Shown: positions 5,563 to 25,808 of the stretch, piece after piece
How positions within the stretch are numbered: position 1 is the first letter of the stretch
Layout: the number at the start of each line of letters is the position of its first letter
Assembly: GCA_002471805.1 (NCBI GenBank)
Contig: DKQR01000066.1
Coordinates: forward strand, 1-38,514
Direction of reading: 5' to 3'
Origin: Fidelibacterota bacterium UBA7303
GTDB taxonomy: Bacteria; Fidelibacterota; Marinisomatia; Marinisomatales; UBA1611
Length of the DNA stretch: 38,514 bases
Position numbers and translations under genes: made by a program
The notes under the pieces: generated by a model
Database searches by the model: none
What the model was told of the DNA's origin: nothing
What the model saw: the letters and a program-made list of their open reading frames with translations, nothing else

Positions 5563-5566
5563 AAAT

Positions 5567-7894: not shown

Positions 7895-7898
7895 AAGA

Positions 7899-9086: not shown

Positions 9087-9099
9087 TGGGAGAATTTTC

Positions 9100-10092: not shown

Positions 10093-10101
10093 GGGCCAAT
10101 T

Positions 10102-11667: not shown

Positions 11668-11682
11668 ACGACAGTTGACAGA

Positions 11683-12960
11683 TTGATTTCATATTTGGAA
11701 AAAACAGAATACTATTTACAAAACAACCTAATCCCCTTTTGGGCTAACAGGGTTGTAGAAAAAAAATATGGTGGATTTCAGACCAATTTTGACCGAAATG
11801 GAATCAGGACCAATGTCACCGAAAAATCATTTTTAGCCCAATGCCGCAGTCTTTTTACCATTTCTCATACAGTTCGATCTGGATATACTTGGCCAAATCA
11901 TGAACAAGCATTGGCCCAGGGGATTAAATTTCTTTTCAAATATTACCAGGACAAAAAGTACGGTGGCTATTACTGGATTGTGAATGAGGATGGATCTGTT
12001 CTTGATGATAATAAGATAATTTACGGTCACGCATTTCTCATTTATGGATTATCGGAGTTTGCATTATTAACCGGTGACGAGTCTGTAAAAACTGAAGCTA
12101 TCCGTGTGTTTGACTTTTTACAGAATAAAATAAAAGATCAAGAATATGGTGGCTATTTTGAACACTTCAATCGCCAATTTGAACCCATTAAAGCGCGAAA
12201 AGATATAGGCGTTTTTAAATCATTGGATGTGCACATGCATCTTATGGAAGCATTTACAACGTTATATGAATTAACGGGCGATGAAAAGCATCGGTTGGCC
12301 CTCGAAGAAATAAATACCCTTATTATTAATAAAATGATTCATAAGGAGACAGGAACGGGTATTTCCATGTTTACGCAAGATTGGTCCCCGATCGCAAATG
12401 TTGAATTGGAGACGGTTTGGGGCGCGGATCGTTTTGATGAAAATGGTAAATCCATTGATATTACGTCTTATGGCCATAATATTGAATTGACCTGGTTGTA
12501 TCTCCTTTCTCAAGATGTGCTTAAAATCCCCCGTGAGAAAAGCTGGGGTAAAATGGTGAAAATATATGAACATACTTACCAGAATGGGATCGATTGGATA
12601 AACGGTGGTTTATTTGTTGAAGGTGAAAAAAAAGGATCCGCCACTGAAACAAATAAAGAATTCTGGCAACAAGCCGAGGGAATGGTTGGATTTTTAGATG
12701 CCTATTTAATGACGGATGATGAAAAATATTTAGATGCTTTTAAAAATATCCACGATTTTGTATTTGAAAAAATGATCAACTGGGAACAAGGGGAATGGTT
12801 TGCTCTATTGGATCAAAAAGGAAACGTTATATGGGATTATATGGGGACCAGTTGGAAAACATTATACCATACCGTTCGAGGCATGTGTGAAATATCCAAC
12901 CGATTACGGAAAATCATTATAGAATTAAAAAACAAATCATTAGATAAAGTGATGGCATAA
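11683..12960 (+). CDS. AGE-family epimerase/isomerase (N-acylglucosamine 2-epimerase / cellobiose 2-epimerase / YihS-like)
   Basis: This is a 425-aa ORF with a TTG start at 11683. There is no upstream in-frame ATG and the next ATG codon in frame lies far downstream (HMHLMEAF). The N-terminus LIPFWANRVVEKKYGGFQTNFDRNG and the repeated YGGY/YGHAF/GGLF motifs are characteristic of the (alpha/alpha)6 AGE fold. Confidence 0.75.
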   Translation: MISYLEKTEYYLQNNLIPFWANRVVEKKYGGFQTNFDRNGIRTNVTEKSFLAQCRSLFTISHTVRSGYTWPNHEQALAQGIKFLFKYYQDKKYGGYYWIVNEDGSVLDDNKIIYGHAFLIYGLSEFALLTGDESVKTEAIRVFDFLQNKIKDQEYGGYFEHFNRQFEPIKARKDIGVFKSLDVHMHLMEAFTTLYELTGDEKHRLALEEINTLIINKMIHKETGTGISMFTQDWSPIANVELETVWGADRFDENGKSIDITSYGHNIELTWLYLLSQDVLKIPREKSWGKMVKIYEHTYQNGIDWINGGLFVEGEKKGSATETNKEFWQQAEGMVGFLDAYLMTDDEKYLDAFKNIHDFVFEKMINWEQGEWFALLDQKGNVIWDYMGTSWKTLYHTVRGMCEISNRLRKIIIELKNKSLDKVMA

Positions 12961-12976
12961 AAAACAGGAGAACATC

Positions 12977-14380
12977 ATGGAAGAACTCATAAAGAAAAAT
13001 GAAAAAAGTAGTCAAAGAATATCAAGAAGAGATTTTATAACCAAATCGTCTGCTGCCGCAGCCGCCTTTATGATTGTGCCGCGATATGTTTTGGGTGGAC
13101 CAGGTTATACCGCTCCAAGTGACAAAATTAATATAGCAGCCATCGGAGTTGGCGGTAAGGGAAGATCAGACATTGCTGCTGTCGCTACGGAAAATATCGT
13201 ATCCCTATGTGATGTGGATGAAGTAAAAATGTTTGATACAATAAAACGTGCCGGCGAATGGGCAGAAGAAAAAGGGTTGTCCGAAAATCCATTGACGAAA
13301 GTGCCGAGATACAAAGATTTTCGTGAAATGTTAGATAAACAAAAAGATATTGATGCAGTAACTGTCAGTACACCTGATCACTTCCATGCAGTCGCCGCCA
13401 TCACGGCTATCAAACAGGGGAAACATGCATTTGTCCAGAAGCCACTTACCTATTCTGTAGATGAAGCTAAAAAATTAAGCGCTGCTGCAAAAAAAGCCGG
13501 TGTTGTCACTCAGATGGGAAACCAAGGCCATGCAGGCGAAGGAATTCGACTCATTGGCGAATGGCTTAAAGATGATGCTATCGGTGAAGTTCGGGAAGTG
13601 CATTGCTGGACAAATAGACCAATTTGGGATACAGGCATGAATCGTCCTGCAGAAATACCATCTGTTCCACCCACATTGGATTGGGATCAATGGATTGGGC
13701 CTGCGCCTTTCAGACCTTATCATCCTGACTATGCACCATGGAGTTGGAGAGCATGGTGCGACTTTGGGACTGGTGCGTTAGGTGATATGGGTGCTCATAT
13801 TTTTGATATTCCCTATCACACATTAAAAATGGATCACCCCACATCTGTTTTTGCCAGTTCATCCAAATTTAATGGAGAATCTTGGCCGGTAGCATCCACC
13901 ATATATTACGAATTCCCACAACGGGGCTCACTACCCCCTGTAAAATTGACTTGGTACGATGGCGGCATCATGCCGCCTCGACCTGAAGGGATCGAACCGG
14001 GAAGACGCATGGGCGATGGCGATGGCGGTATCATGTTCTATGGTGATAAAGGAATGATTATGTGCGGTTGCTATGGTAGAAACCCAAGATTGGTTCCGGA
14101 AACAAGTATGAAGGAATATCAACGTCCGCCAAAAACACTGTCCAGATCTCCGGGAATACATGAGGAATGGGTCCAGTGCATTAAGGAAAGCAAGCAAGCC
14201 TCATCAAATTTTGATTATGCCGCCAGATTAACCAGCACTATGTTGTTGGGAAATATTGCCATCCGCATGGCGCCGAAAAGTACCAAATTAGAATGGGATG
14301 GAATAGCAGGTAAATTCACCAATATGGATGAAGCCAATGATTATCTTGGCCGTGAATATCGCGACGGCTGGAATTTGTAA
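12977..14380 (+). CDS. TAT-exported Gfo/Idh/MocA-family oxidoreductase (paralogue 1)
   Basis: This is a 467-aa ORF with the Shine-Dalgarno-like AGGAGA at 12966-12971. The twin-arginine signal is SRRDFITKSSAAAAAF, with the RR codons at 13025-13030. The Rossmann motif is IAAIGVGGKG and the family motif is FVQKPLT. Confidence 0.85.
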   Translation: MEELIKKNEKSSQRISRRDFITKSSAAAAAFMIVPRYVLGGPGYTAPSDKINIAAIGVGGKGRSDIAAVATENIVSLCDVDEVKMFDTIKRAGEWAEEKGLSENPLTKVPRYKDFREMLDKQKDIDAVTVSTPDHFHAVAAITAIKQGKHAFVQKPLTYSVDEAKKLSAAAKKAGVVTQMGNQGHAGEGIRLIGEWLKDDAIGEVREVHCWTNRPIWDTGMNRPAEIPSVPPTLDWDQWIGPAPFRPYHPDYAPWSWRAWCDFGTGALGDMGAHIFDIPYHTLKMDHPTSVFASSSKFNGESWPVASTIYYEFPQRGSLPPVKLTWYDGGIMPPRPEGIEPGRRMGDGDGGIMFYGDKGMIMCGCYGRNPRLVPETSMKEYQRPPKTLSRSPGIHEEWVQCIKESKQASSNFDYAARLTSTMLLGNIAIRMAPKSTKLEWDGIAGKFTNMDEANDYLGREYRDGWNL

Positions 14381-14400
14381 TACTAAAAAAAGGGTATACG

Positions 14401-15009
14401 ATGAATAATAAATATTTATTTGGTTTGATTGCAGCGATTGCAGTTGCGTTTGCTGCAAAAATGATGAATGCTCCATCTGGAAATGGTTGGATCTCATTGT
14501 TCAACGGGAAAGATCTAACAGGCTGGCGCGCCAGTGAAAGTGGAGATTTTCGTGTTGAAGATAGCGCCATTGTTGTGCGGGGGAAAAGGGCTCATTTATT
14601 TTCAGAAAAAGAATTCCAGAATTTTGAATTCAAATGTGAAATCATGACCCAATACGGCAGTAATTCCGGTCTATATTTTCATACCCAGTATGAAGAATCC
14701 TGGCCCAGTCGTGGGTATGAAGTCCAGGTGAATACGTCCCATGGAGATCCGGTGAAAAATGGCAGCCTTTGGGGTGTGGTGAGATCTTTTGACCCCATTG
14801 TCAAGGACAATGAATGGTTCACGCTGGAAGTCAAAGTGGATGGTAAACATGTGGTGACCAAAGTGAATGGGAAAGTTGTGGTGGATTATAATGAGTTAGA
14901 GGGTGTTACCGCTGGCCGGAGAATCGATAAAGGGTCCTTTGCGATCCAGGCTCATGATCCCAAAAGCGTTGTGCGTTACAGAAATATTATGGTTAAACCA
15001 TTTAATTAG
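14401..15009 (+). CDS. DUF1080 (3-keto-disaccharide hydrolase, PF06439-like) secreted protein
   Basis: This is a 202-aa ORF with the signal peptide MNNKYLFGLIAAIAVAFAAK. The segments GWISLFNGKDLTGWRA, FEFKCEIM..GSNSGLYFH, LEVKVDGKHVVTKVNGKVV and FAIQAHD match the DUF1080 concanavalin-like pattern. Confidence 0.8.
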   Translation: MNNKYLFGLIAAIAVAFAAKMMNAPSGNGWISLFNGKDLTGWRASESGDFRVEDSAIVVRGKRAHLFSEKEFQNFEFKCEIMTQYGSNSGLYFHTQYEESWPSRGYEVQVNTSHGDPVKNGSLWGVVRSFDPIVKDNEWFTLEVKVDGKHVVTKVNGKVVVDYNELEGVTAGRRIDKGSFAIQAHDPKSVVRYRNIMVKPFN

Positions 15010-15065
15010 TCGGCAATGAATACATCTGTGGTATCTAATTTCAAGATTCTAAAATTGGATATAAA

Positions 15066-16430
15066 TTGAACGAAAATGAGACAATTATGAATAAGAAAAA
15101 GGAAGACAAAATAACTCGAAGAGAATTTATGGGAAAAGCTGCTGCTACTGCTGCAGCATTTACCATTGTACCGCGCTACGTTTTGGGGGGGACCGAATAC
15201 ACTGCTCCAAGTGATAAACTGAATATTGCATGTGTGGGGATTGGCGGGAAAGGACATTCAGATGTGCATGGTGTAAGTTCTGAAAATATTTATGCACTGT
15301 GCGATGTTGATGATGTAAAAGCTGCAGAAACCTACAGGGATTTTCCTAAAGCAAAACGCTATACAGATTTCCGTAAAATGCTGGAAAAAGAAAAGGAAAT
15401 TGATGCTGTTACTGTTACTACGCCAGATCACAATCATGCTGTGGTTGCCATTGCAGCCATGGATCTGGGGAAGCATGTTTATGTGCAAAAACCTTTAACA
15501 CATACTGTAGAAGAAGCAAGGAAACTGGCAGAAAAAGCCAAAGAATATAATTTGGTAACACAGATGGGAAACCAAGGGCATGCCGGTGAAGGCGGACGGT
15601 TGATCAATGAATGGATTTGGGATGGTGCCATTGGTGATGTTTATGAAGTCCATGTCTGGACGAACCGACCCATTTGGCCACAGGGAATTATCAGACCCGA
15701 GACGATACCATCTGTTCCGTCTTCCTTAGACTGGAATCAATGGCTGGGACCGGCAAAGTGGAGACCTTATCACCCCGCTTATGCTCCTTTTGTCTGGCGA
15801 GGGTGGCTGGATTTTGGTACAGGTGCCCTGGGTGATATGGGAGCCCATTTAATTGATCATCCTTACTGGGCATTAAAGATGGAATATCCCGATACTGTGC
15901 AGGCAAGCTCCAGTCCGATTAACGATGAAACCTATCCAAACGCATCCATAGTAACATATGAATTTCCAGCAAGAGATAAGATGCCGCCAGTAAAAATGAT
16001 TTGGTACGATGGTGGATTAACACCACCCAGGCCCAAAGAGCTGGAACCGGGCCGGAAAATGGGCGATGGCGGGGGAGGAGTTTTGTTTGTGGGAACAAAG
16101 GGGAAAATGATGTGCAGTACATATGGGAATAATCCCCGTATCATTCCGGAAACAAAAATGAAAGAATACAAGAGACCTCCAAAATCCATACCAAGATCTT
16201 CTGGAATTAGGGAAGAATGGATTGAAGCCATAAAAGGCGGACCTGCAACCACATCCAATTTTGAATATGCATCAAAATTGACTGAAACTATGCTACTTGG
16301 ATGTATCGCATTACGGGTCGCTGACAAACGAACCATTCTCGAATGGGACGGGAATAAGGGACAGTTTACCAATTTGGATGAAGCCAATGCCTTCTTGCAT
16401 AAAGAATACAGGGATGGCTGGACACTTTAA
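15066..16430 (+). CDS. TAT-exported Gfo/Idh/MocA-family oxidoreductase (paralogue 2)
   Basis: The track ORF begins at TTG 15066. ATG 15087 ([25 protein letters not shown]) is an equally plausible start. The protein has a twin-arginine motif (TRREFMGK) and is collinear with the 12977-14380 product along its whole length. Confidence 0.85.
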
Positions 16431-16439
16431 AGGATAATT

Positions 16440-17786
16440 GTGGTTCAAAATAAAAACGCCAAAGTAATAAACCGGCGACAATTTATTAAAACCAGTACAG
16501 CTGCAGGGGCCAGTCTCATTTTGGCGCCTCATGTACTTAAAGGTGCTAAATCCTTTGGCGTAGATGACATTAATGTGGCATTATTAGGTGCTGGTGCCCA
16601 AGGACAAGTACTCATGAATGCCTGCCTGAAAATCCCGGGAATTCGGTTCAAAGCTGTCTGCGATATCTGGAAAGAATATAACCAGAAGCGGGTTTATCGT
16701 TTGTTGGGGAAATATGGTCATAAGTTGAATGCCTATGAAGATTATAGGGAAATGCTGGCAAATGAAAAAGATCTTGATGCTGTTATTGTAGCAACGCCTG
16801 ATTTCTGGCATGCAGAACATGCCACTGCCTGTCTCGAAGCGGGGCTGAATGTATATTGTGAAAAGGAAATGTCCAATACGCTTGAAGGAGCAAAGCAAAT
16901 TGTTCGGGCCGCGAAAAAAAGCGGGAAACTATTACAGGTTGGGCATCAACGGCGAAGCAATCCGCGATACATCCACTGTTATGAAAAATTAATCAAGGAA
17001 GCAAAAATATTAGGACATATTACAACGATTAACGGTCAGTGGAATCGCGCGGTGCAGCCCGATTTGGGCTGGCCGGAAAAATATGCCATTCCCCAACCTA
17101 GATTAGAACAATATGGTTTTCAATCCATGGCACAATTCAGAAACTGGCGTTGGTATAAAGGGTTCGGCGGCGGACCCATCGTTGATTTGGGTTCACACCA
17201 AATTGATATATTCAGTTGGTTTTTGGATGCGGTTCCATTATCCGTAATGGCATCCGGCGGCACCGATTATTATGATTCTCAAACTCATGAATGGTATGAT
17301 ACAGTCATGGCCATGTTTGAATACGATACACCAAAGGGATTGGTTCGTGCTTTTTACCAAACTATTACGACCAACAGCAATATGGGATATTTCGAAAATT
17401 TTATGGGTGACCAGGGTACATTGCAAATATCAGAATCAGCCGGTCGTGCAGGTATTTACCGGGAACAATCAGCTCCTCTATGGGACAAATGGGTGGATAA
17501 AAGCTTCCTGAATGCCCCGGCAGAAGAAAAAATACCTAATGTCAACGGGGCGGTATTGGATGTACGGGAAACTGTTGCACCACCAAAGTATGAATTGCCG
17601 GTTACCTTCAACGACCCCTACCATAAACCTCATTTGGAAAATTTCTTTAATTCCATTCGGGGTACGGATACATTGAATTGTCCGGCTGAAGTGGGCTATG
17701 AAACGGCTGTTGCTGTATTAAAAGTAAATGAAGCCGTTGAAAAAGCATCGCTTGTTAAATATGATAGAAATGAGTTTACACTGTAA
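16440..17786 (+). CDS. TAT-exported Gfo/Idh/MocA-family oxidoreductase (third, more divergent)
   Basis: This is a 448-aa ORF with a GTG start at 16440. The twin-arginine signal is NRRQFIKTSTAAGASLILAP, the Rossmann motif is VALLGAGAQGQ and the family motif is YCEKEMS. Confidence 0.8.
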   Translation: MVQNKNAKVINRRQFIKTSTAAGASLILAPHVLKGAKSFGVDDINVALLGAGAQGQVLMNACLKIPGIRFKAVCDIWKEYNQKRVYRLLGKYGHKLNAYEDYREMLANEKDLDAVIVATPDFWHAEHATACLEAGLNVYCEKEMSNTLEGAKQIVRAAKKSGKLLQVGHQRRSNPRYIHCYEKLIKEAKILGHITTINGQWNRAVQPDLGWPEKYAIPQPRLEQYGFQSMAQFRNWRWYKGFGGGPIVDLGSHQIDIFSWFLDAVPLSVMASGGTDYYDSQTHEWYDTVMAMFEYDTPKGLVRAFYQTITTNSNMGYFENFMGDQGTLQISESAGRAGIYREQSAPLWDKWVDKSFLNAPAEEKIPNVNGAVLDVRETVAPPKYELPVTFNDPYHKPHLENFFNSIRGTDTLNCPAEVGYETAVAVLKVNEAVEKASLVKYDRNEFTL

Positions 17787-17999
17787 CTGATAAAATCAAA
17801 TTCATTATATATAAAACCCAAGGCCTTTAAACAATTTAGATTTACAATAGGAAATTTGTCTGAAAATTAATCCATTATTATTTAAACAAAAAATAAGTAC
17901 CGAGTGTTTATTGGTAGTTCAAAAACAGAAGAAGAAAAAAGAAACATAAAATTCCATAACCTTGATATGATAACTTCAGTTGATTACTATGTAAAATCT

Positions 18000-18047
18000 A
18001 AAACGGTACCCAATTTTGTAGGGTATCGAATACGCTCCGAGACCGTT
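18000..18047 (+). other. Possible RNA structure (terminator/attenuator-like) in the leader of the cytochrome operon
   Basis: AAACGGT (18000-18006) pairs perfectly with ACCGTTT (18041-18047), and TGTTG follows the stem, continuing its 3' T run as TTTTGTTG (18045-18052). An inner hairpin, GGTACCC (18004-18010) with GGGTATC (18020-18026), forms 7 bp including one G-U. It competes for bases 18004-18006. I assessed this by hand folding only. Confidence 0.2.
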
Positions 18048-18082
18048 TTGTTGAGTGATTTTCAATTTCATGAATAAGAATT

Positions 18083-19963
18083 TTGTTTAAAATGGTGATG
18101 AACCAAAACAATAGAATAAAACTATTTTTTATTGGACTTATTTTTCTATTACAGGGGACCCTGTTTTCAGGAGAAGGAAAATTAGGAGATTCCCCTGATG
18201 GTAGCCGTCATCCAGCGGTTCATAAAATAAAATTAATGGACCACGATAGTTCTATCATTCATCTGTACGAACAGCCGCTTTTACCCTTTTCTACAGAAAT
18301 GACTTGTGGTGCCTGCCATAATTATCAATCAATTCGTTCCGGCTGGCATTTTAATGCTGGCAGTGCTGGGAATGATGGTCGTAATAGTCAACCGTGGATT
18401 TATTCCAATCCAAAAACATTGACTCAAATTCCGTTGAGTTATAGAAATTGGGACGGCACTTTCACACCGGAAGAAATTGGGATGTCCGTTTTTAAATTTA
18501 CACAATTATTCAATCGCCATCACCCCGGTGGAAGTGTGGGAGAGCAGGAAAAATTTTGGGATAAAAACAATATATTTCGTTGGAATGTGTCCGGGAAGGT
18601 GGAAGTGAACTGTTTGGTTTGCCATGATGTTGACCCGGCCAATGATCGCTCCCAATATGCAAGGCAACTTAAAAAACAAAATTTCCGTTGGGCTCCCGCC
18701 AGTACGGTATCCTTTGCTGATGTAAATGGTTCTGCGAAAGATATGCCGGATCATTATGATATTTATTATGGCTTAGCGCCGGATGAATCAAAATTCATTC
18801 CACCTGGCATTGATTATGATAAAAACATGTTCAATGAAAAAGATGAGGTCTTTTTTGATGTAACAAGAAATATCCCTAACAAAAATTGTTATTTCTGCCA
18901 TTCATCTATGATAGTTGATAAAAAACGATCTGAATTCTGGCAGCATGGCGAAGATGTTCATTTAAAGCGTGGAATGAATTGTGTTGATTGCCACCGGAAT
19001 GGATTGGACCACCAGATGGTACGGGGATATCCCAACGAATACAGAGATAGAAATTCACCAGAATTGTATGCTTTTTCCTGTGCGGGCTGCCATTTTCCCA
19101 ACAAAAATGATCAAAATATTTCACATAATAATCATGGACAAATTCCACAACATAAAGGACTACCCCCGATCCATTTCGATAGACTTTCCTGCACGGCATG
19201 TCATTCGGGAGAAATACCCGAAAGTGAATCGTTTTTTACAAAGACGTCCATGGCCCATGCACTGGGAACCCATGGAATCAATAAAGCAGACAGTACGCTG
19301 CCGCATATTATAACACCCGTATTTCAAAAAGATGACAATGGGAAAATCAGTCCGGTTAATATGGTATGGCCCTCTTTTTGGGGCTGGAAAAATGATGGCA
19401 ATATTTCTCCCATGAACCAAGACGGTTATGAATCGATAGTAAAAAATGTTTTATCAGAATTGCCATTAAATATAAATGGTTCATGGCCCGTTATCGAGGA
19501 AAATCAGATATCAGATATTTTAACATTATTTGCATCTCAAAAAAGTGAATCGACGCCCGTTTTTGTAAGTGGGGGAAAAGTGTATGTTCAAGATTCCAAT
19601 GGACTAAGATCGTTGGATAATCCAATTGCTGATCCATACGCATGGCCTATTGCCCACAATGTTCGTCCTGCAACTATGGCATTGGGCAGTGGCGGATGTA
19701 CAGATTGCCATAGTGTTGATTTACCATTTTATACCGGCATCATTACAGTTGATTCCCCCCTTAAAACCGATGATGCAATGATGGTTGATTTTCACAGTAA
19801 AAATTTGTTTGCGGCCCAAGTATTTTCAAATGCATTCATATTTAGACCCTGGCTTAAAGGCATTATTTATTTGTCGGTTGGCCTAATTCTTTCGATCTTA
19901 GCTTTATTTTTAATTAATGGGTTGGGAAAATGGATTGAATCAACCCAATTGGACGAGAATTAA
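18083..19963 (+). CDS. Heptahaem c-type cytochrome, secreted, with a C-terminal transmembrane anchor
   Basis: This is a 626-aa ORF with a TTG start at 18083; ATG 18092 is an alternative. There are seven CXXCH motifs, at 18305-18319, 18611-18625, 18887-18901, 18980-18994, 19079-19093, 19190-19204 and 19697-19711. These account for all 14 cysteines in the protein. The N-terminal signal peptide is RIKLFFIGLIFLLQGTLFSG and the C-terminal hydrophobic helix is GIIYLSVGLILSILALFLINGL. Confidence 0.85.
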   Translation: MFKMVMNQNNRIKLFFIGLIFLLQGTLFSGEGKLGDSPDGSRHPAVHKIKLMDHDSSIIHLYEQPLLPFSTEMTCGACHNYQSIRSGWHFNAGSAGNDGRNSQPWIYSNPKTLTQIPLSYRNWDGTFTPEEIGMSVFKFTQLFNRHHPGGSVGEQEKFWDKNNIFRWNVSGKVEVNCLVCHDVDPANDRSQYARQLKKQNFRWAPASTVSFADVNGSAKDMPDHYDIYYGLAPDESKFIPPGIDYDKNMFNEKDEVFFDVTRNIPNKNCYFCHSSMIVDKKRSEFWQHGEDVHLKRGMNCVDCHRNGLDHQMVRGYPNEYRDRNSPELYAFSCAGCHFPNKNDQNISHNNHGQIPQHKGLPPIHFDRLSCTACHSGEIPESESFFTKTSMAHALGTHGINKADSTLPHIITPVFQKDDNGKISPVNMVWPSFWGWKNDGNISPMNQDGYESIVKNVLSELPLNINGSWPVIEENQISDILTLFASQKSESTPVFVSGGKVYVQDSNGLRSLDNPIADPYAWPIAHNVRPATMALGSGGCTDCHSVDLPFYTGIITVDSPLKTDDAMMVDFHSKNLFAAQVFSNAFIFRPWLKGIIYLSVGLILSILALFLINGLGKWIESTQLDEN

Positions 19964-19966
19964 TTC

Positions 19967-20386
19967 ATGTTCAGCTCTAGAATAAATATGATTAATACCT
20001 TATGGTTCATCAGTTTTATTGGAATGGCAATCACAGGATTTTTTCCCCTTATCTTGGGTAATACCACTTTGAATGGCTGGTGGATGATTCTGCATGTATC
20101 CATCGCACCATTATTTTCTATTTTGCTGGCGATCGGGGCATTGCATTGCGCAAAAAAAATGGGAATTGATTTTAAAGATGCACCTGAAAGTAAGTTGAGC
20201 AGAATCATTTTTTGGTTCTTTTTGTTTCTATTTATCCCAAATGCATTATCCATTCTATTCAGTATGAATACATGGTTTGTATCATCCACTCAATATGTGT
20301 TTTTAGAAGTGCATTTTTATTCAGCAATAGGTATGTTATTATTGGTCGTACTTCATTTTAATTTTTCAAGAAAGAACAAAGGATAA
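19967..20386 (+). CDS. Small 4-TM membrane protein, candidate dihaem cytochrome b-type partner (DUF4405-like)
   Basis: This is a 139-aa ORF that starts 3 nt after the cytochrome stop. It has four hydrophobic helices. The protein has exactly four histidines (H43, H60, H116 and H130), all in helices 2 and 4. Their spacings are 17 and 14 residues, close to the 13-14 classically seen in bis-His haem-b bundles. Confidence 0.5.
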   Translation: MFSSRINMINTLWFISFIGMAITGFFPLILGNTTLNGWWMILHVSIAPLFSILLAIGALHCAKKMGIDFKDAPESKLSRIIFWFFLFLFIPNALSILFSMNTWFVSSTQYVFLEVHFYSAIGMLLLVVLHFNFSRKNKG

Positions 20387-20400
20387 TTAGGAATACACAT

Positions 20401-21078
20401 ATGAAACCCAGCTTTAGATATATAAAATATGTAGTAACAACACTCGTTTGGATAATAACCTTTCTTTTTTCTCAAGAATCAAAATTGGTTCCTATTAAAC
20501 TTGAATTGCCAAAACCCATGTTTATCGGAACACCCCAAAACCTAAATGTGAAAAATCTTCAAAAACCACTGGGCAAACCCAGACCGGCGTTTCTGGCCCC
20601 GGTCGGCACCAAAAATATCGCACTGGGAAAACCAATTTACAGTTCCGATGATTTTCCTGTGATTGGAGAAATAGAAATGATTACCGATGGCGATAAAAAT
20701 GCAGCTGAAGGTAGTTTTGTAGAATTGGGTCCATTCCTACAGGATGTGACGATTGATTTAGAGGAAAATTATAAAATATTTGCCATTGTTTTTTGGCATT
20801 ACCATAAACAGGCTCGGGTGTATTTTGATGTTGTGGTTCAAACAGCGGATAATAAGGATATGACAAAAAATATTCATACACTTTTTAATAATGATATGGA
20901 CAATTCGGCCGGATTTGGTGTAGGAAATGATATGCATTATGTGGAGACATCCGAAGGAAAACTCCTCGATGCCAAAGGTGTCACCGGGCGTTTTGTGAAA
21001 CTTTACAGCCGGGGCAACACCAACAACGATTTGAATCATTATATTGAAGTAGCTGTATACGGCCTTCCTTTGAAATGA
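20401..21078 (+). CDS. Secreted discoidin (F5/8 type C)-like carbohydrate-binding domain protein
   Basis: This is a 225-aa ORF with an AGGAA ribosome-binding site upstream. The N-terminal hydrophobic segment is VVTTLVWIITFLF. The segments NIALGKPIYSSD, MITDGDKNAAEGSFVELGP, VTIDLEENYKIFAIVFWHYH, GRFVKLYSRGNTNND and IEVAVYG follow the discoidin jelly-roll pattern. Confidence 0.6.
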   Translation: MKPSFRYIKYVVTTLVWIITFLFSQESKLVPIKLELPKPMFIGTPQNLNVKNLQKPLGKPRPAFLAPVGTKNIALGKPIYSSDDFPVIGEIEMITDGDKNAAEGSFVELGPFLQDVTIDLEENYKIFAIVFWHYHKQARVYFDVVVQTADNKDMTKNIHTLFNNDMDNSAGFGVGNDMHYVETSEGKLLDAKGVTGRFVKLYSRGNTNNDLNHYIEVAVYGLPLK

Positions 21079-22628
21079 TTTCCGATCGTTACGGAACGAC
21101 CATTGTTCTGTCGATTTTCATTATAGCGGGTTTTTTTCGCTTCACAGATCTCTCCAGCCGGCCTATGCATGGCGATGAAGCCATCAATGCAGTCAAACTT
21201 TCCGGTGTAGTTGAAACTGGCCAATTTGATTATAAACCAACCCAGCATCATGGACCGCTTTTATATTTTACGGGCTACTTGTTTTCAGCTTTCCATGGTT
21301 TGGATGGCATTCAGGATTTCAGTGAAGAGTTTCTCCGGAGTGTTACTGGTTTTGTAGGCATCCTGCTTTTATGGATTGGGTTCACTTTTAAAAAATCACT
21401 TCAGAATAATGTATTATATCTTGCTTTTGGGTTGATGGCTATTTCACCATCGTTGGTTTTTTATAGTCGGTTTTTTATCCATGAGATTATTATCGTTTTC
21501 TTCAGTTTAGGAATGATCGCAAGCGGATATCAATATTTGAAGACTGAAAAGTCGTTGTGGCTTGCATTGACTGGAGTGGCACTGGGATGTATGATATCTA
21601 CAAAGGAAACGTGGCCTCTATTTTTGATTGCTATGGGAAGTTCAGCCGCAATATTATACTTCCATAAAGGTGTAAAACGGCTTATTTCATTGAAACATGG
21701 TATAACAATTGCTGGGATTGCAGTGGCAACAACCTTCCTTTTTTATTCTGACTTCTTCCGGGATATAAATAACAGTACTGATGCCTTTCTGGCTTTCAAG
21801 CCATATCTGGAAAGAGTATCATCCGAAGGAATTCATAACCATCCCTGGTATTTTTACCTGAATATCATTTTCCCGCTTGGCCATTCCGGAAGTTGGCTGC
21901 ATCTGGGAGAGGGTTTACTCTTCTTAGTTTTTATCTTCAATTTGCCGCTGATGCTTCGTTCTGAAAAACAACCTATAACTATACAGTTTTTGTTTTGGTA
22001 TTCTTTGGTTCTATTATTTGTGTTTTCAGCAATTCCATACAAAACACCCTGGAACATTTTAGGTATCATGCCTGGAATGATTATTGTGTCTGCGAATACA
22101 ATTGTCAATCAAGTCTATAAATTGAATCAAAAAATATTGGGAAACATATTTATTGTTTTATTGGGTGGTTTACTTATGTTGCAGTCCTATTCCTATAATT
22201 TCAAGAATGAAGCCAATCCAGCAAATCCATACGTCTATGCTCATCCCACAAAGGATATTTTCACGATAGAAACTAAAATTCATGACATGGCTAATGTTTT
22301 AACTAATGAAATTGATTTTTCCGTTTTTGTCATGGCAACCGGGGATGACTATTGGCCCTTTCCGTGGTATTTACGGGATATGGATAATGTTGGCTATTGG
22401 AATCATGTTCCGCTAGATGTGGGATCAGCATCAGTTGTATTCGTTTCGTCTGACTTAACAGATAATTTAGTCAAAACAATTTATGAAAAGGCCGAACCTG
22501 GAATGTCATCCTTGCTCATTCCATTGTTTGATGAAATGATGGAACTTCGTCCCGGCGTTGAAATTAGCGGGTACATCAAAAAGGACGTTTATGATTTATA
22601 TGAGCGTTTAAGTTCACATGACGGATAA
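21075..22628 (+). CDS. Polytopic GT-C-fold glycosyltransferase (TIGR03663 / PMT_2 / ArnT-like)
   Basis: This is a 517-aa ORF that overlaps the upstream gene by 4 nt (ATGA). It has about 11 hydrophobic helices followed by a soluble C-terminal domain. The first extracytoplasmic loop carries RPMHGDEAINAV, an acidic DE motif typical of GT-C enzymes, followed by YKPTQHHGPLLYF. Confidence 0.65.
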   Translation: MISDRYGTTIVLSIFIIAGFFRFTDLSSRPMHGDEAINAVKLSGVVETGQFDYKPTQHHGPLLYFTGYLFSAFHGLDGIQDFSEEFLRSVTGFVGILLLWIGFTFKKSLQNNVLYLAFGLMAISPSLVFYSRFFIHEIIIVFFSLGMIASGYQYLKTEKSLWLALTGVALGCMISTKETWPLFLIAMGSSAAILYFHKGVKRLISLKHGITIAGIAVATTFLFYSDFFRDINNSTDAFLAFKPYLERVSSEGIHNHPWYFYLNIIFPLGHSGSWLHLGEGLLFLVFIFNLPLMLRSEKQPITIQFLFWYSLVLLFVFSAIPYKTPWNILGIMPGMIIVSANTIVNQVYKLNQKILGNIFIVLLGGLLMLQSYSYNFKNEANPANPYVYAHPTKDIFTIETKIHDMANVLTNEIDFSVFVMATGDDYWPFPWYLRDMDNVGYWNHVPLDVGSASVVFVSSDLTDNLVKTIYEKAEPGMSSLLIPLFDEMMELRPGVEISGYIKKDVYDLYERLSSHDG

Positions 22629-23526
22629 AATTGCTGTTCACGGAATTGATTCAAACTGGCTAGAGGAGCACGACATTCACCGGTTTTCCCATAAAGCCAT
22701 GGCAACAGTTTTCGATATATTGATTTATCATGATAACTATTCTTATGCCCTTCAGGCCGCAACGGAATCTTTTGCGCAATTAGATTTACTGGAGCAGGAT
22801 TTAAGCCGGTTTGTGGTAAACAGCGACATTTCCCGGATCAACCAGTTAAAGCCAGGAGAATCCACAGTAGTTGGAGTAGACTCTATGGAATGTTTAGTGA
22901 TTTGTCAGAGGCTTCAAAGCGAAACTAATGGCGCATTTAATCCCACCGTTGGGAAAGTCATTGATCGTTGGAAAAATGAAACTGAATCGGTAATTAATAT
23001 CAATGAAAATATTGGTAATCTGATTCTGGATTCAAAATCATATACAGTCACCTTAATTGATAATCCCATTTCCATTGATTTGGGTGGTATCGGCAAAGGA
23101 TATGCCTTAGATAAACTCAAAGTGACATTTCAGGAATGGGGTATTGAAACCATATTAATCAATAGCGGGAGGAGTACCTTTTTAGCCGTGGAAGCTCCGA
23201 AAGACGAAACAGGTTGGCCATTAACAATTTCCCATCCATCTGATAATAGTGAATTAAAACGAATTTCCTTAAATAAGAGTGCAATTGCCGGTTCTGGGAT
23301 AGAAAAAGGGAATCATATTGTTTCACCCTCAAATTATCAGCCGGTTCAAAACAGATTGGGTGCCTGGTCTGTGGCGAAAACAGGTGCGGAAGCAGATGCT
23401 CTTTCCACATCATTTATGATTATGAGCGAAAGGGAAATAATAGATTATATGAACCATCACCCGGATGTGGGTGGAATGGTTTTTGATGAAAAAGGAAGTA
23501 TGAGGAAATTTGGTACTTTCGAATAA
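22618..23526 (+). CDS. apbE: FAD:protein FMN transferase (ApbE family)
   Basis: This is a 302-aa ORF that overlaps the upstream gene by 11 nt. It has the ApbE hallmarks HKAMATVFDI, SDISRIN, NGAFNPTVG, DLGGIGKGYALDKL and AIAGSG. Confidence 0.85.
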   Translation: MTDKIAVHGIDSNWLEEHDIHRFSHKAMATVFDILIYHDNYSYALQAATESFAQLDLLEQDLSRFVVNSDISRINQLKPGESTVVGVDSMECLVICQRLQSETNGAFNPTVGKVIDRWKNETESVININENIGNLILDSKSYTVTLIDNPISIDLGGIGKGYALDKLKVTFQEWGIETILINSGRSTFLAVEAPKDETGWPLTISHPSDNSELKRISLNKSAIAGSGIEKGNHIVSPSNYQPVQNRLGAWSVAKTGAEADALSTSFMIMSEREIIDYMNHHPDVGGMVFDEKGSMRKFGTFE

Positions 23527-23534
23527 TAACTGAA

Positions 23535-24248
23535 TTAGATGGGAAATTTCAGTTTCCAACTATCTCGCAATACTTCCCATATCGTCGGAATAGAGGAAAG
23601 GCGGCTGTCTCGATCGCAGGTCCATTCAATGGGCATTTCCTTCATAGAAATATACTTTTCCTTTGCAAGTCTTAATATTTCGATTTCGAATAAGAATCCA
23701 TCAATCCGCCCTCTGCTGAATAAATCGCGAGCAATGATTCCATCATAAATCTTAAACCCGCACTGCGTATCGCTGAATCCCCAAATGGAAGGGAACAACA
23801 ATTTAGTGACTATCCTGAAAAGAATAGAAACCAGGCGACGATACCAGACCAATTGTTTACGAATAATGCTTTCTGGTAGATGGCGTGAGCCAAGAATAAT
23901 CTGGTGTTCATTATTCCGAATCATATCGATCCCTATGGTGATAAAATCTAATGCAACTGTTTTTCCACTATCTATGAACATGACAATATCACCTTTGGAT
24001 TCAAGAATGCCTTTCCGAACTGCATGGCCTTTTCCATAATGATCATTTTCTTTTAATATAACTAAACGAACATTGTCCGTTAAGGATGTTTCATTTGCTA
24101 TTTCAGACGTTCCATCCGTACTTCCATCATCCGATACAATTATTTCACCAGTGATGTTATTATTTGTTAAGTAATCGGAAAGGGAGGTGATATCTTCACT
24201 AATTTTTTCCGCTTCATTTAAAACGGGTATAATGATGGATAGATTCAT
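23535..24248 (-). CDS. Family 2 glycosyltransferase (polyprenyl-phosphate glycosyltransferase-like)
   Basis: This is a 237-aa ORF. The N-terminus LSIIIPVLNEAEKI and the segment VSDDGSTDGT are classic GT2 motifs, and the small size fits DPM/DPG-synthase-like enzymes. Its stop codon lies 8 nt from the stop of apbE on the other strand. Confidence 0.8.
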   Translation of the reverse strand: MNLSIIIPVLNEAEKISEDITSLSDYLTNNNITGEIIVSDDGSTDGTSEIANETSLTDNVRLVILKENDHYGKGHAVRKGILESKGDIVMFIDSGKTVALDFITIGIDMIRNNEHQIILGSRHLPESIIRKQLVWYRRLVSILFRIVTKLLFPSIWGFSDTQCGFKIYDGIIARDLFSRGRIDGFLFEIEILRLAKEKYISMKEMPIEWTCDRDSRLSSIPTIWEVLRDSWKLKFPI

Positions 24249-25803: not shown

Positions 25804-25808
25804 ATTAT

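What the first reader, a model, noticed from the sequence alone, without database searches (positions are those of the whole stretch)
18083..24248. Operon of heptahaem cytochrome c, His-rich 4-TM protein, discoidin lectin, GT-C glycosyltransferase and ApbE, with a convergent GT2: candidate undescribed periplasmic redox/glycosylation module
**Seen in sequence:** five co-directional genes are packed as one unit. The gaps are 3 and 14 nt, followed by a 4-nt ATGA overlap and an 11-nt overlap.
- Gene 1 encodes a 626-aa secreted protein with seven CXXCH motifs and a C-terminal TM anchor.
- Gene 2 encodes a 139-aa four-helix membrane protein whose only four histidines lie in helices 2 and 4.
- Gene 3 encodes a 225-aa secreted discoidin-like beta-sandwich.
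- Gene 4 encodes a 517-aa polytopic GT-C enzyme of the TIGR03663/PMT_2 type, with HGDEA in loop 1.
- Gene 5 encodes ApbE (DLGGIGKGYALD).
- A small GT2 gene converges on the operon end, with only 8 nt between the stop codons.

**Established knowledge:** ApbE covalently flavinylates extracytoplasmic redox proteins. GT-C enzymes consume polyprenyl-phosphate sugars of the kind that small GT2 enzymes make. Multihaem c plus dihaem b pairs form quinone-linked electron modules.

**Inference:** the combination does not match the Nrf, Otr, Hao, Mtr/Omc, Nap, Nos, Nqr/Rnf or Cyc2 layouts I know. It looks like a membrane-anchored periplasmic electron-transfer module. Its assembly or targeting appears to involve glycosylation, lectin binding and covalent flavin.
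Basis: partly seen in the sequence, partly recalled or inferred. Interest (0 to 1): 0.85.

Follow-up and report, generated by a model that had tools for sequence, protein, structure and literature searches.

The report
Cytochrome-wired periplasmic sugar dehydrogenase gene cluster
A gene cluster conserved across at least eight bacterial phyla pairs an exported NAD-type sugar dehydrogenase with a membrane-anchored seven-haem cytochrome, a small b-type cytochrome, a flavin-attaching enzyme and a sugar-lipid glycosylation set; it may show how periplasmic sugar oxidation feeds the respiratory chain.

Summary
The synteny is conserved in 80 genome loci from at least eight phyla.

A Tat-signal Gfo/Idh/MocA dehydrogenase (GFO3, 16440-17786) lies directly upstream of the cytochrome in every locus with enough upstream sequence. 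The 4-TM protein is an FdnI/cytochrome b561-type protein with only one invariant His pair. The 225-aa protein has a CBM32/discoidin fold. The neighbourhood encodes the periplasmic 3-keto-glycoside pathway.

Best reading (about 0.5): a three-part periplasmic dehydrogenase built like formate dehydrogenase-N. GFO3 oxidises a sugar, and electrons pass through the heptahaem cytochrome and the b cytochrome to quinone. This would re-oxidise the non-exchangeable NADH of such enzymes, an open question in that field.

Unresolved: this ApbE has no signal peptide, so it is predicted to be cytoplasmic. No cluster protein carries the canonical flavinylation motif. The role of the discoidin / GT-C / GT2 block is inferred only. 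I found no published description. The cytochrome matches no characterised family or solved fold.

The parts
16440..17786 (+).
   Evidence: PF01408 2.7e-20, GFO C-terminal domains, and a TAT_signal hit at 22.1 bits, just under the 22.7 cut-off. RR.F, GxGxxG, EKE, and GGGP..DLGSHQID are invariant. An orthologue at 50-85% identity lies directly upstream of the cytochrome in 72/80 loci; the other 8 have less than 1.3 kb of upstream sequence. It scores only 90 bits against BT_2158_fam, so it is a separate subfamily.
17787..18097 (.). AT-rich spacer between GFO3 and the cytochrome gene; lineage-specific (other loci show gaps of 0 to about 400 nt in tblastn coordinates, three with inserted ORFs)
   Evidence: 98% identical in the close relative L084. 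No Rfam hit. Local hairpin not significant (z -1.47). Promoter-like matches are at chance level.
18083..19963 (+). CYT7: secreted heptahaem cytochrome c with a C-terminal membrane anchor (probable true start ATG 18098, 621 aa)
   Evidence: Seven invariant CXXCH motifs plus eight further invariant His residues. TM helix at 593-611. The family has 318 clusters at E<=1e-30. No characterised family or solved fold matches.
19967..20386 (+). TM4: four-helix b-type cytochrome of the cytochrome b561 / FdnI type, the proposed quinone-side subunit
   Evidence: 22 of 25 orthologues hit PF01292 (best 2.9e-10). An orthologue hits formate-DH gamma TIGR01583 at 6.8e-10. Only H43 and H116 are invariant. By the positive-inside rule both lie near the periplasmic face (inference).
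20401..21078 (+). DISC: secreted or lipoprotein CBM32/discoidin-fold protein with a conserved Pro-rich N-terminal arm
   Evidence: Foldseek finds 120 PDB hits at E<=0.001, with CBM32 modules at the top. It is 57-83% identical across phyla. The family has more than 8000 proteins. T44 is invariant and T70 nearly invariant in the arm. Lipoboxes and S/T/P-rich linkers occur in other phyla.
21075..22628 (+). GTC: polytopic GT-C protein, TIGR03663 (Agl23) / PMT_2 type
   Evidence: TIGR03663 at 187 bits against a cut-off of 126; PMT 2.7e-10. 'RPmH.DEA' in loop 1 is conserved in more than 85% of 43 sequences.
22618..23526 (+). ApbE-family FAD:protein FMN transferase without any export signal (predicted cytoplasmic)
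   Evidence: PF02424 1.2e-42. It aligns over most of its length to the V. cholerae and T. maritima enzymes. It has no hydrophobic segment. All 44 cluster orthologues have hydrophilic N-termini.
23535..24248 (-). GT2: small soluble family-2 glycosyltransferase of the polyprenyl-phosphate-sugar-synthase type, convergent
   Evidence: PF00535 3.2e-20. NCBIfam hits over most of its length to PpgS and AglJ type enzymes, all below cut-off. It is convergent in nearly all loci that have it.
7830..16430 (+). Upstream context, the periplasmic 3-keto-glycoside pathway: GFO (7830-9086), xylose-isomerase-like TIM barrel (9100-10092), MFS (10102-11667), GlcNAc-2-epimerase-like (11683-12960), GFO1 (12977-14380), DUF1080 3-keto-disaccharide hydrolase (14401-15009), GFO2 (15066-16430)
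   Evidence: Pfam. GFO1 and GFO2 score 508 and 553 bits over nearly the whole length against BT_2158_fam glycoside 3-dehydrogenase. The same gene types flank the cluster in other phyla.

Best explanation
The core is a three-subunit periplasmic dehydrogenase laid out like formate dehydrogenase-N or [NiFe] hydrogenase-1.
- GFO3 is a Tat-exported Gfo/Idh/MocA enzyme that carries its NAD(P) with it. It oxidises a sugar or glycoside hydroxyl.
- The reducing equivalents leave through the seven bis-His haems of CYT7, which is held at the membrane by one C-terminal helix.
- They then pass to the periplasm-side haem of the FdnI-like four-helix cytochrome b (TM4), and from there to the quinone pool.

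This gives the non-exchangeable NADH of periplasmic glycoside dehydrogenases a respiratory sink. Without it the enzyme must reduce a keto-sugar to recycle its cofactor.

The second block (DISC, GT-C, ApbE, convergent GT2) is read as maturation or accessory machinery.
- ApbE supplies a covalent FMN that would bridge two-electron hydride chemistry and one-electron haems. Because this ApbE is predicted to be cytoplasmic, the only cluster protein it could modify before export is the Tat substrate GFO3.
- GT2 plus the Agl23-like GT-C make and use a polyprenyl-phosphate hexose at the periplasmic face. The most likely acceptor is the Pro-rich arm of the CBM32-like lipoprotein DISC, which would act as a glycan-binding or docking subunit.

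Shown: the gene families, topology signals, conserved residues and synteny. Inferred: the direction of electron flow, physical complex formation, the substrate, the flavinylation target and the glycosylation acceptor.
For: Synteny:
- 80 loci come from Planctomycetota (40), Bacteroidota (11), Calditrichota (9), KSB1 (3), Neomarinimicrobiota (3), Omnitrophota (2), Acidobacteriota (2), Ignavibacteriae (1) and others.
- A GFO3 orthologue lies directly upstream of CYT7 in 72/80 loci, and the remaining 8 contigs are cut short.
- A TM4 homologue follows CYT7 in at least 68 of 71 loci with enough downstream sequence.
- Among 44 loci with at least 10 kb downstream, ApbE is present in 35, GT-C in 32, DISC in 31 and GT2 in 26.
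- Four loci have the minimal order GFO3-CYT7-TM4-ApbE.
- Independent gene calls and Pfam marks agree.

Families:
- GFO3 keeps the Tat motif, the Rossmann GxGxxG, EKE and D-x-x-x-H.
- TM4 is PF01292 / FdnI-like with one invariant His pair.
- CYT7 has seven invariant CXXCH motifs and eight further invariant His residues, enough for all-bis-His electron-transfer haems.

Context:
- BT2158-like glycoside 3-dehydrogenases, a DUF1080 3-keto-glycoside hydrolase and a TIM-barrel lyase lie upstream.
- Permeases, an FGGY kinase and an aldolase are inserted in other phyla.

Literature:
[quoted passage not shown] Cytochromes were suggested as possible re-oxidants, but none was identified.
- TIGR03663/Agl23 works with the GT2 Agl22 on hexose-P-dolichol.
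- Cytoplasmic ApbEs exist.
Against: - No biochemical or expression data exist.
- No canonical ApbE motif occurs in GFO3 or any other cluster protein (0 of 84 GFO3-type ORFs, 80 CYT7, 71 TM4, 45 DISC), so the flavin step has no identified site.
- No flavinylated Gfo/Idh/MocA protein turned up in the flavinylation papers read here.
- Direct NADH-to-haem transfer without flavin would be unusual.
- About a quarter of loci with 10 kb downstream lack the DISC/GT-C block nearby, so it may not be obligatory.
- Only one haem site is conserved in TM4, which weakens the parallel with dihaem FdnI.
- The AF2 model of CYT7 is poor in the haem core (pLDDT below 50 at 270-376). The absence of a PDB fold match is therefore weak evidence of novelty.
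- Complex formation was not modelled.
Confidence: 0.5

Rival explanations
1. Same complex, opposite direction. Quinol-derived electrons flow through TM4 and CYT7 into GFO3, which reduces its bound NAD+ and then a periplasmic keto-sugar. This could be a reductive reset for glycoside dehydrogenases, or a keto-sugar respiratory sink in fermenting anaerobes.
For: Many carriers come from lineages I know as mainly anaerobic: Sedimentisphaerales, Omnitrophota, KSB1, Calditrichota (the physiology is own knowledge). The 3-keto-glycoside pathway needs both an oxidising and a reducing half-reaction. The architecture itself is direction-neutral.
Against: By standard potentials (own knowledge), menaquinol to NAD+ is uphill. 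The pathway already regenerates NAD+ by reducing 3-keto-glucose, so the limiting state reported is the reduced enzyme.
Confidence: 0.12
2. An envelope-glycan biosynthetic system. GT2 makes a polyprenyl-phosphate hexose and the Agl23-like GT-C flips or transfers it. GFO3 then oxidises the lipid- or protein-linked sugar in the periplasm and passes the electrons to the quinone pool, as DprE1 does with decaprenyl-phosphoribose. DISC binds the product.
For: GT2 plus TIGR03663 parallels Agl22/Agl23, which work on hexose-P-dolichol. The DISC, GT-C, ApbE, GT2 block is conserved as a unit, including once in inverted orientation (L052). An Alistipes fosmid carrying the 3-keto-glycoside genes also holds GT2 and GT39 genes. 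The DprE1 precedent is own knowledge.
Against: The flanking genes are catabolic: 3-keto-glycoside hydrolases and lyases, permeases, an FGGY kinase and an aldolase. Four loci keep GFO3-CYT7-TM4-ApbE without the glycosylation genes nearby.
Confidence: 0.12
3. Two independent units lie side by side. One is a redox trio (GFO3-CYT7-TM4). The other is a separate envelope-glycosylation and flavinylation operon (DISC, GT-C, ApbE, GT2) whose targets are elsewhere in the genome.
For: Variable insertions of 0-9 kb separate the two blocks. 9-13 of 44 loci lack block-2 genes within 10 kb. A tandem-DISC gene sits away from any such cluster in L081. There is no flavinylation motif in block 1.
Against: The two blocks stay close across at least six phyla despite rearrangement. 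ApbE alone stays attached to the trio in four minimal loci. An ApbE predicted to be cytoplasmic cannot serve the usual periplasmic substrates such as NqrC or RnfG.
Confidence: 0.15

Closest known systems
Formate dehydrogenase-N (FdnGHI) and [NiFe] hydrogenase-1 (HyaABC) type periplasmic dehydrogenases
   Same: A Tat-exported catalytic subunit. An electron-transfer subunit anchored by one C-terminal TM helix. A four-helix PF01292 cytochrome b. H116 and H130 in the window protein are 14 residues apart, the spacing I recall for the two helix-IV His ligands of FdnI (own knowledge, not checked here).
   Different: The catalytic subunit is an NAD-type Gfo/Idh/MocA enzyme, not a Mo or NiFe enzyme. 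The wire is a heptahaem c-type cytochrome instead of a 4x[4Fe-4S] protein. Only the periplasm-side His pair of the b subunit is conserved.
Periplasmic 3-keto-glycoside pathway (B. thetaiotaomicron BT2156-2159; Alistipes AL1-AL5)
   Same: Tat-signal Gfo/Idh/MocA dehydrogenase with non-exchangeable NAD, a DUF1080 hydrolase/hydratase and a TIM-barrel lyase are all encoded next to the cluster.
   Different: The known pathway is redox-neutral and has no cytochromes. GFO3 is a distinct subfamily (90 bits against 508-553 for GFO1/GFO2). The known pathway has no ApbE or CBM32-like protein; GT2 and GT39 genes lie on the Alistipes fosmid but are not part of the five described genes.
Cytochrome c-linked sugar dehydrogenases (glucoside 3-dehydrogenase LacABC; FAD-dependent fructose/gluconate dehydrogenases with a trihaem subunit)
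   Same: Periplasmic sugar oxidation is coupled through a c-type cytochrome subunit to the respiratory chain (and own knowledge).
   Different: Those enzymes use an FAD GMC-type catalytic subunit. No GMC protein is present here. The haem count, membrane anchoring and b-type partner all differ.
ApbE-dependent extracytosolic flavinylated electron-transfer systems (Meheust 2021; Huang 2024)
   Same: An apbE gene is clustered with a membrane cytochrome and extracytosolic redox proteins.
   Different: ApbE here lacks an export signal. No FMN-bind, DUF2271 or NqrB/RnfD domain and no D-x-x-[ST]-G-A-[ST] motif is present. The membrane partner is PF01292 rather than DUF4405, PepSY or MsrQ, with only marginal DUF4405 hits in 3 of 25 members.
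Agl22/Agl23 of Haloarcula hispanica (GT2 hexose-P-dolichol synthase plus TIGR03663 protein)
   Same: A small GT2 is paired with a TIGR03663 GT-C-fold membrane protein.
   Different: The present system is bacterial. It is embedded in a redox and catabolic cluster, and it keeps the PMT-like H.DEA loop-1 motif, which suggests transferase activity. No N-glycosylation genes lie nearby.

Membership tests
Gfo/Idh/MocA NAD(P)-dependent oxidoreductases (GFO3) | N-terminal Rossmann domain with GxGxxG, an EKP-type motif, and a C-terminal domain with the catalytic D-x-x-x-H | tested here: met
   PF01408 2.7e-20 and PF02894/PF22725. G50/G52/G55, E141-K-E, and D249..H253 are invariant or nearly so. The closest PDB entries are DgpA, GFOR and inositol dehydrogenases.
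BT_2158-type glycoside 3-dehydrogenase (NF058561) | Full-length match above the curated cut-off (750 bits) | tested here: not met
   GFO3 scores 90.5 bits, over the N-terminal 272 residues only. The neighbours GFO1 and GFO2 score 508 and 553 bits.
Tat-exported cofactor-containing periplasmic enzymes | Twin-arginine signal peptide | tested here: met
   R12 R13 x F15 is invariant in 24 orthologues. The PF10518 hit scores 22.1 bits, just under the 22.7 cut-off. Export itself was not tested.
Characterised multihaem cytochrome families (NrfA/B/H, Hao/Otr octahaem, MtrC/OmcA, ExtM/N, methanogenesis heptahaem) | Family HMM above cut-off, or a shared fold | tested here: not met
   The best NCBIfam scores are 12-21 bits against cut-offs of 40-800. 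Pfam hits are only generic c3/c7 haem-motif matches over residues 263-377. A profile search against PDB finds only 50-100-residue matches to nitrite reductases, at E 0.003-0.04. Foldseek finds no hit at E<=0.001 (the model is of moderate quality).
Prokaryotic cytochrome b561 / FdnI / HyaC family (PF01292) | Four TM helices with His ligands for two b haems | tested here: inconclusive
   22 of 25 orthologues hit PF01292 (best 2.9e-10), but the window protein itself does not. Only one His pair (H43, H116) is invariant. TIGR01583 scores 39 bits against a cut-off of 116.
ApbE FAD:protein FMN transferase | ApbE domain with the conserved FAD/Mg-site motifs | tested here: met
   PF02424 at 146.7 bits. 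D.G..GKGya.D, HIi.p and Da.sTa are conserved in more than 85% of 45 sequences. It aligns to 6nxi and 1vrm. Activity was not tested.
ApbE-flavinylated extracytosolic electron-transfer systems | A secreted or lipoprotein ApbE plus a substrate bearing D-x-x-[ST]-G-A-[ST] in an FMN-bind, DUF2271 or NqrB/RnfD domain | tested here: not met
   No signal peptide or TM helix in 44 cluster orthologues. The motif is absent from all cluster proteins in 80 loci and from all six frames of the window. No such domains are found.
GT-C glycosyltransferase, TIGR03663 (Agl23) / PMT_2 | Family HMM above cut-off, a polytopic membrane protein, and an acidic motif in the first extracytoplasmic loop | tested here: met
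   187.1 bits against 126.25. Multiple hydrophobic helices. R29-P-M-H-x-D-E-A is conserved in more than 85% of sequences. Transferase versus flippase activity is not testable here.
CBM32 / discoidin (F5/8 type C) carbohydrate-binding modules | Beta-sandwich fold; Pfam PF00754/PF22633 above the gathering score; a sugar-binding loop site | tested here: inconclusive
   The fold is met: Foldseek E 2e-6, probability 1.00, TM 0.68 to 4zy9, with 120 hits at E<=0.001. Pfam scores are below cut-off (18.5 and 15.2 bits). The model pLDDT is 69.5 with disordered loops. Ligand binding was not tested.
Polyprenyl-phosphate glycosyl synthases (GT2; DPM1/ArnC/PpgS/Agl22 type) | GT-A GT2 domain with a DxD motif; match to an equivalog model above cut-off | tested here: inconclusive
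   PF00535 at 73 bits; 'ddgs.d' and 'DsG' motifs are conserved. The PpgS (37.8 bits) and AglJ (34.5 bits) alignments cover most of the protein, but all are far below cut-offs.

The most novel reading that the evidence does not exclude
The four-gene block is a new way of installing a periplasmic flavin. The ApbE, predicted to be cytoplasmic, would transfer FMN from FAD onto a hydroxyl of a polyprenyl-phosphate hexose made by the GT2, not onto a protein threonine. The Agl23-like GT-C would then flip this flavin-sugar-lipid and transfer it to an invariant threonine (T44 or T70) on the Pro-rich arm of the CBM32-like lipoprotein DISC. DISC would become a swinging-arm flavin carrier between the NADH of GFO3 and the first haem of CYT7.

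This one idea would account for four observations: the ApbE has no export signal, the canonical motif is absent everywhere, the order DISC, GT-C, ApbE, GT2 is conserved, and DISC is unusually conserved (57-83% identity across phyla). There is no direct evidence for it. The four minimal loci that keep ApbE without the other three genes nearby argue mildly against it.
Probability: 0.06. Interest if true: 0.95.

Novelty: new variant of a known kind. Interest (0 to 1): 0.72.

Why it matters
**The open question.** Periplasmic Tat-exported Gfo/Idh/MocA enzymes were recently shown to drive a broad-specificity, non-Koshland route of glycoside breakdown. They also occur as many paralogues in the loci examined here from Planctomycetota, Bacteroidota, Calditrichota and Marinimicrobia. 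Their NAD cannot exchange, and the authors of that work left open how the reduced enzyme is re-oxidised in vivo. They named cytochromes as a possibility.

**What this cluster offers.** It is a concrete and testable candidate: a dedicated dehydrogenase, heptahaem cytochrome and cytochrome b unit. It is present in at least 498 species-level genomes, and near-identical copies are common in marine metagenomes. If it works as proposed, sugar oxidation in the periplasm would feed the respiratory chain directly. That would matter for carbon and energy budgets of abundant uncultured marine and sediment bacteria.

**Further puzzles.**
- An ApbE predicted to be cytoplasmic with no recognisable substrate motif.
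- A bacterial Agl22/Agl23-like pair tied to a redox module.

Tried and rejected
1. **Known multihaem families** (Nrf, Otr, Hao, Mtr, Ext, methanogenesis heptahaem). Rejected: scores are far below cut-offs and there is no fold hit.
2. **TM4 as DUF4405**, the flavinylation-associated cytochrome of Huang 2024. Only 3 of 25 members gave marginal hits, against 22 of 25 for PF01292.
3. **Search for a flavinylation site.** The regex D..[ST]G[AS][ST] was run over all ORFs of 80 loci and over six frames of the window. It found none in cluster proteins; the only three hits were in unrelated ORFs of other loci. Weaker candidates in GFO3 are S-G-G-T275, which is T in only 49 of 70, D-V-R-E-[T/S]378 and I-S331-E. 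None resembles the motif.
4. **An upstream start giving ApbE a signal peptide.** Excluded: the ORF already begins at the first start codon after a stop.
5. **Promoter and terminator scan.** Promoter-like matches are at chance level; terminator-like sites exceed the shuffles (16 against 7.8) but give no clear transcript boundary.
6. **RNA element in the GFO3-CYT7 spacer.** No Rfam hit and the fold is not significant.
7. **Literature searches.** Six searches combined ApbE, Gfo/MocA, multihaem, DUF1080, 3-ketoglycoside and Marinimicrobia. None described the cluster. The library lacks most subscription papers.
8. **A cultured carrier.** The top 120 hits for CYT7, DISC and GFO3 are all from MAGs or metagenomes.

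Full report
**1. Observation**

The ORF list reproduces the finding exactly.
- CYT7 18083-19963 (626 aa)
- TM4 19967-20386 (139 aa)
- DISC 20401-21078 (225 aa)
- GT-C 21075-22628 (517 aa)
- ApbE 22618-23526 (302 aa)
- GT2 23535-24248, minus strand (237 aa)

The gaps of 3 and 14 nt, the ATGA overlap, the 11-nt overlap and the 8 nt between convergent stops were read directly.

Family assignments:
- ApbE: PF02424, 1.2e-42.
- GT-C: TIGR03663 at 187 bits (cut-off 126), plus PMT and PMT_2.
- GT2: PF00535, 3.2e-20.
- Cytochrome: only generic multihaem motif hits.
- 139-aa protein: nothing.
- 225-aa protein: sub-threshold F5/8-type-C hits.

Two small corrections apply. Gene callers on near-identical contigs, and the alignment, place the cytochrome start at ATG 18098, giving 621 aa. 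The four histidines of the 139-aa protein are present, but only two are conserved.

**2. Conservation and the missing partner**

The cytochrome has 1793 homologues at 90% clustering, all labelled hypothetical. It has 318 clusters at E<=1e-30 among 1.84 billion representatives. A scan of one genome per species found at least 498 relatives, and the best 80 loci were kept. They come from:
- Planctomycetota: 40
- Bacteroidota: 11
- Calditrichota: 9
- KSB1: 3
- Neomarinimicrobiota: 3
- Omnitrophota: 2
- Acidobacteriota: 2
- Ignavibacteriae: 1
- labelled Deferribacteres: 1
- unclassified: 8

A tblastn of the window's proteins against these loci, together with ORF maps, shows a near-invariant order:

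[BT2158-like GFO / DUF1080] - GFO3 - CYT7 - TM4 - (0-9 kb of variable sugar-catabolic genes) - DISC - GT-C - ApbE - GT2 (convergent)

- **GFO3** (window 16440-17786) was not in the finding. Its orthologue is 50-85% identical and sits directly upstream of the cytochrome in 72/80 loci. The other eight contigs have less than 1.3 kb of upstream sequence.
- **TM4** homologues follow the cytochrome in at least 68 of 71 loci with enough sequence.
- **Block 2.** Among 44 loci with at least 10 kb downstream, ApbE is present in 35, GT-C in 32, DISC in 31 and GT2 in 26.
- **Minimal form.** Four loci (L024, L048, L049, L071) have GFO3-CYT7-TM4-ApbE.
- **Independent checks.** Gene calls with precomputed Pfam marks give the same picture in L082, L083 (Calditrichota) and L084/L085, which are near-identical to the window.

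**3. The parts**

*GFO3.* It is a Gfo/Idh/MocA protein with a twin-arginine motif (RR.F invariant), a Rossmann GxGxxG, EKE, and the GGGP..DLGSHQID catalytic motif. Its nearest solved relatives are DgpA, glucose-fructose oxidoreductase and inositol dehydrogenases. They match only in the Rossmann domain and the catalytic motif. Against the NCBIfam model for BT2158-type glycoside 3-dehydrogenases it scores 90 bits, whereas its neighbours GFO1 and GFO2 score 508 and 553. It is therefore a separate and very conserved subfamily, with at least 6117 proteins at E<=1e-50, all carrying only generic names. Copies 96-100% identical occur in Tara and ENA marine metagenomes.

*CYT7.* It has seven invariant CXXCH motifs and eight further invariant histidines, enough for bis-His ligation of every haem. 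That suggests an electron wire rather than a catalytic haem (inference). It has a signal-like N-terminus and one C-terminal TM helix. The AF2 model has mean pLDDT 75.5, but the haem core at 270-376 is below 50. It has no PDB match at E<=0.001. A family profile finds only 50-100-residue matches to nitrite reductases, at E 0.003-0.04.

*TM4.*
- 22 of 25 orthologues hit PF01292, prokaryotic cytochrome b561 (best 2.9e-10).
- One orthologue hits formate-dehydrogenase gamma TIGR01583 at 6.8e-10.
- Only H43 (helix 2) and H116 (helix 4) are invariant. By the positive-inside rule both lie near the periplasmic face.
- H60 and H130 of the window protein are not conserved, even in other Marinimicrobia.
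- Most orthologues are 200-250 aa and have an extra N-terminal helix.

*DISC.* Its AF2 model (pLDDT 69.5) matches CBM32/discoidin modules (E 2e-6, TM 0.68, 120 hits at E<=0.001). It is 57-83% identical across phyla. The family exceeds 8000 proteins and includes tandem-duplicated forms. A conserved Pro-rich arm (LPKPMF.GTP...NLEKPLGKPRPPFLAP.GT.N) precedes the sandwich. In other phyla it is a lipoprotein with long S/T/P-rich linkers.

*GT-C and GT2.* The GT-C protein keeps 'RPmH.DEA' in loop 1, which resembles the Asp-Glu loop-1 motif of PMT enzymes as I recall it (the PMT motif is own knowledge). TIGR03663 is Agl23. In Haloarcula hispanica, Agl23 works with the GT2 Agl22 on hexose-phosphate-dolichol, and the purified protein translocates lipid-linked glycans. 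The small, TM-less GT2 here resembles polyprenyl-phosphate sugar synthases, but all scores are below the model cut-offs.

*ApbE.* It aligns over most of its length to solved FMN transferases and keeps their conserved motifs. It has no hydrophobic segment, and its ORF already begins at the first possible start. All 44 cluster orthologues begin with a short hydrophilic stretch followed directly by the ApbE domain. This ApbE is therefore predicted to be cytoplasmic. Such enzymes are known, for example in Klebsiella.

**4. Context**

Upstream in the window lie:
- another GFO
- a xylose-isomerase-like TIM barrel
- an MFS transporter
- a GlcNAc-2-epimerase-like protein
- GFO1
- a DUF1080 3-keto-disaccharide hydrolase (1.3e-43)
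- GFO2

In other phyla the genes inserted between TM4 and DISC are an NCS1-like permease, an MFS transporter, an FGGY kinase, a DeoC-type aldolase, a xylose-isomerase-like protein and further GFOs. Lyase-hydratase fusions precede GFO3 in L082 and L083.

These are the components of the periplasmic 3-keto-glycoside pathway. [quoted passage not shown] **5. Mechanism proposed**

The trio has the layout of formate dehydrogenase-N and hydrogenase-1: a Tat-exported catalytic subunit, an electron-transfer subunit with a C-terminal anchor, and a PMF-family-PF01292 cytochrome b. I propose the following path:

sugar or glycoside oxidation by GFO3, then (flavin?), then the seven haems of CYT7, then the P-side haem b of TM4, then quinone.

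Family membership, topology signals and synteny are shown. The direction of flow, complex formation and the substrate are inferred.

A two-electron to one-electron converter is expected between NADH and haem, and ApbE is the obvious supplier. Because this ApbE is predicted to be cytoplasmic, the only cluster protein it could modify before export is the Tat substrate GFO3. This is unproven. The canonical motif D-x-x-[ST]-G-A-[ST] is absent from all cluster proteins in 80 loci and from the whole window. The conserved Ser/Thr positions in GFO3 do not resemble it.

GT2 plus GT-C most simply provide and use a polyprenyl-phosphate hexose at the periplasmic face. DISC is translationally coupled to GT-C. 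It carries an invariant Thr44 and a nearly invariant Thr70 in its Pro-rich arm, and S/T/P-rich linkers in other phyla. That makes it the best acceptor candidate and a possible glycan-binding or docking subunit (inference).

**6. Rivals**

The rivals are:
- reverse electron flow
- a DprE1-like biosynthetic oxidation of a lipid-linked sugar
- mere adjacency of two independent units

Each is listed with evidence in the rivals section. The catabolic neighbourhood and the four minimal loci that keep ApbE with the trio favour the main reading. The variable spacing, and the absence of block 2 from about a quarter of the loci, keep the adjacency rival alive.

**7. Comparison and novelty**

Six full-text searches found no description of this cluster. 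The two surveys of ApbE-associated clusters do not mention Gfo/Idh/MocA or glycosyltransferase partners. The search is limited, because the library lacks most subscription journals.

In architecture this is a new variant of a known kind, a periplasmic dehydrogenase:quinone oxidoreductase. It has an unprecedented catalytic subunit type and an uncharacterised cytochrome family. It also has an accessory block that fits no described flavinylation or glycosylation system.

**8. Verdict**

Interest is 0.72.

Noticed in passing
window 17787-18097: A spacer of about 310 nt, AT-rich, separates GFO3 from the cytochrome gene in this lineage. In the other loci the gap is mostly under 400 nt in tblastn coordinates (about 20 nt in two other Marinimicrobia), apart from three with inserted ORFs. 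It is 98% identical in the close relative L084. There is no Rfam hit and the local hairpin is not significant (z -1.47). It may hold an internal promoter.
   Followed up: partly
window 18083-18098: The cytochrome ORF as listed starts at TTG 18083. Homologues, and gene callers on near-identical contigs, start at ATG 18098 (MNQNN..., 621 aa).
   Followed up: yes
window 25809-26849 (-) and 26861-30313 (-): Downstream on the opposite strand lie a PorV/PorQ-family type IX secretion protein (172 bits, cut-off 90) and an 1150-aa protein with no family hit. A 484-aa protein with a weak PPIase-like hit lies at 24406-25860. These suggest a T9SS cargo or outer-membrane locus.
   Followed up: partly
window 5408-7894 (+): An 828-aa metallophosphoesterase / purple-acid-phosphatase-like protein has N-terminal jelly-roll / galactose-binding-like domains. 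It heads the co-directional run of sugar-pathway genes.
   Followed up: no
L082 205-2361; L083 8538-9983: In other phyla the gene just upstream of GFO3 is a fusion of the xylose-isomerase-like TIM barrel (AP_endonuc_2) with a DUF1080 3-keto-disaccharide hydrolase domain. This joins the lyase and hydratase steps of the 3-keto-glycoside pathway in one protein.
   Followed up: no
P0121-P0158; L081 10001-11461: Tandem-duplicated DISC proteins of 420-545 aa exist, mostly in Planctomycetota. One (L081, Phycisphaerales) lies away from any cytochrome cluster, near CODH/ACS genes and downstream of an unannotated 510-aa ORF.
   Followed up: partly
L018 12941-14326; L082 8146-9603 and similar: In Planctomycetota a conserved 440-485-aa membrane protein is inserted between TM4 and DISC. 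It has no Pfam hit and is weakly NCS1 (allantoin/cytosine permease)-like. Its substrate is unknown.
   Followed up: partly
literature: bioRxiv 10.1101/2024.03.25.586180, Fig. 3a legend: The Alistipes fosmid P1C11, from which the 3-keto-glycoside pathway was characterised, also carries GT2 and GT39 (PMT-type GT-C) genes. This echoes the GT2 / GT-C association seen here.
   Followed up: no
window 16440-17786: Dozens of 96-100% identical GFO3 sequences occur in Tara Oceans and ENA marine assemblies. The window therefore derives from an abundant marine Neomarinimicrobiota (SAR406) population.
   Followed up: partly
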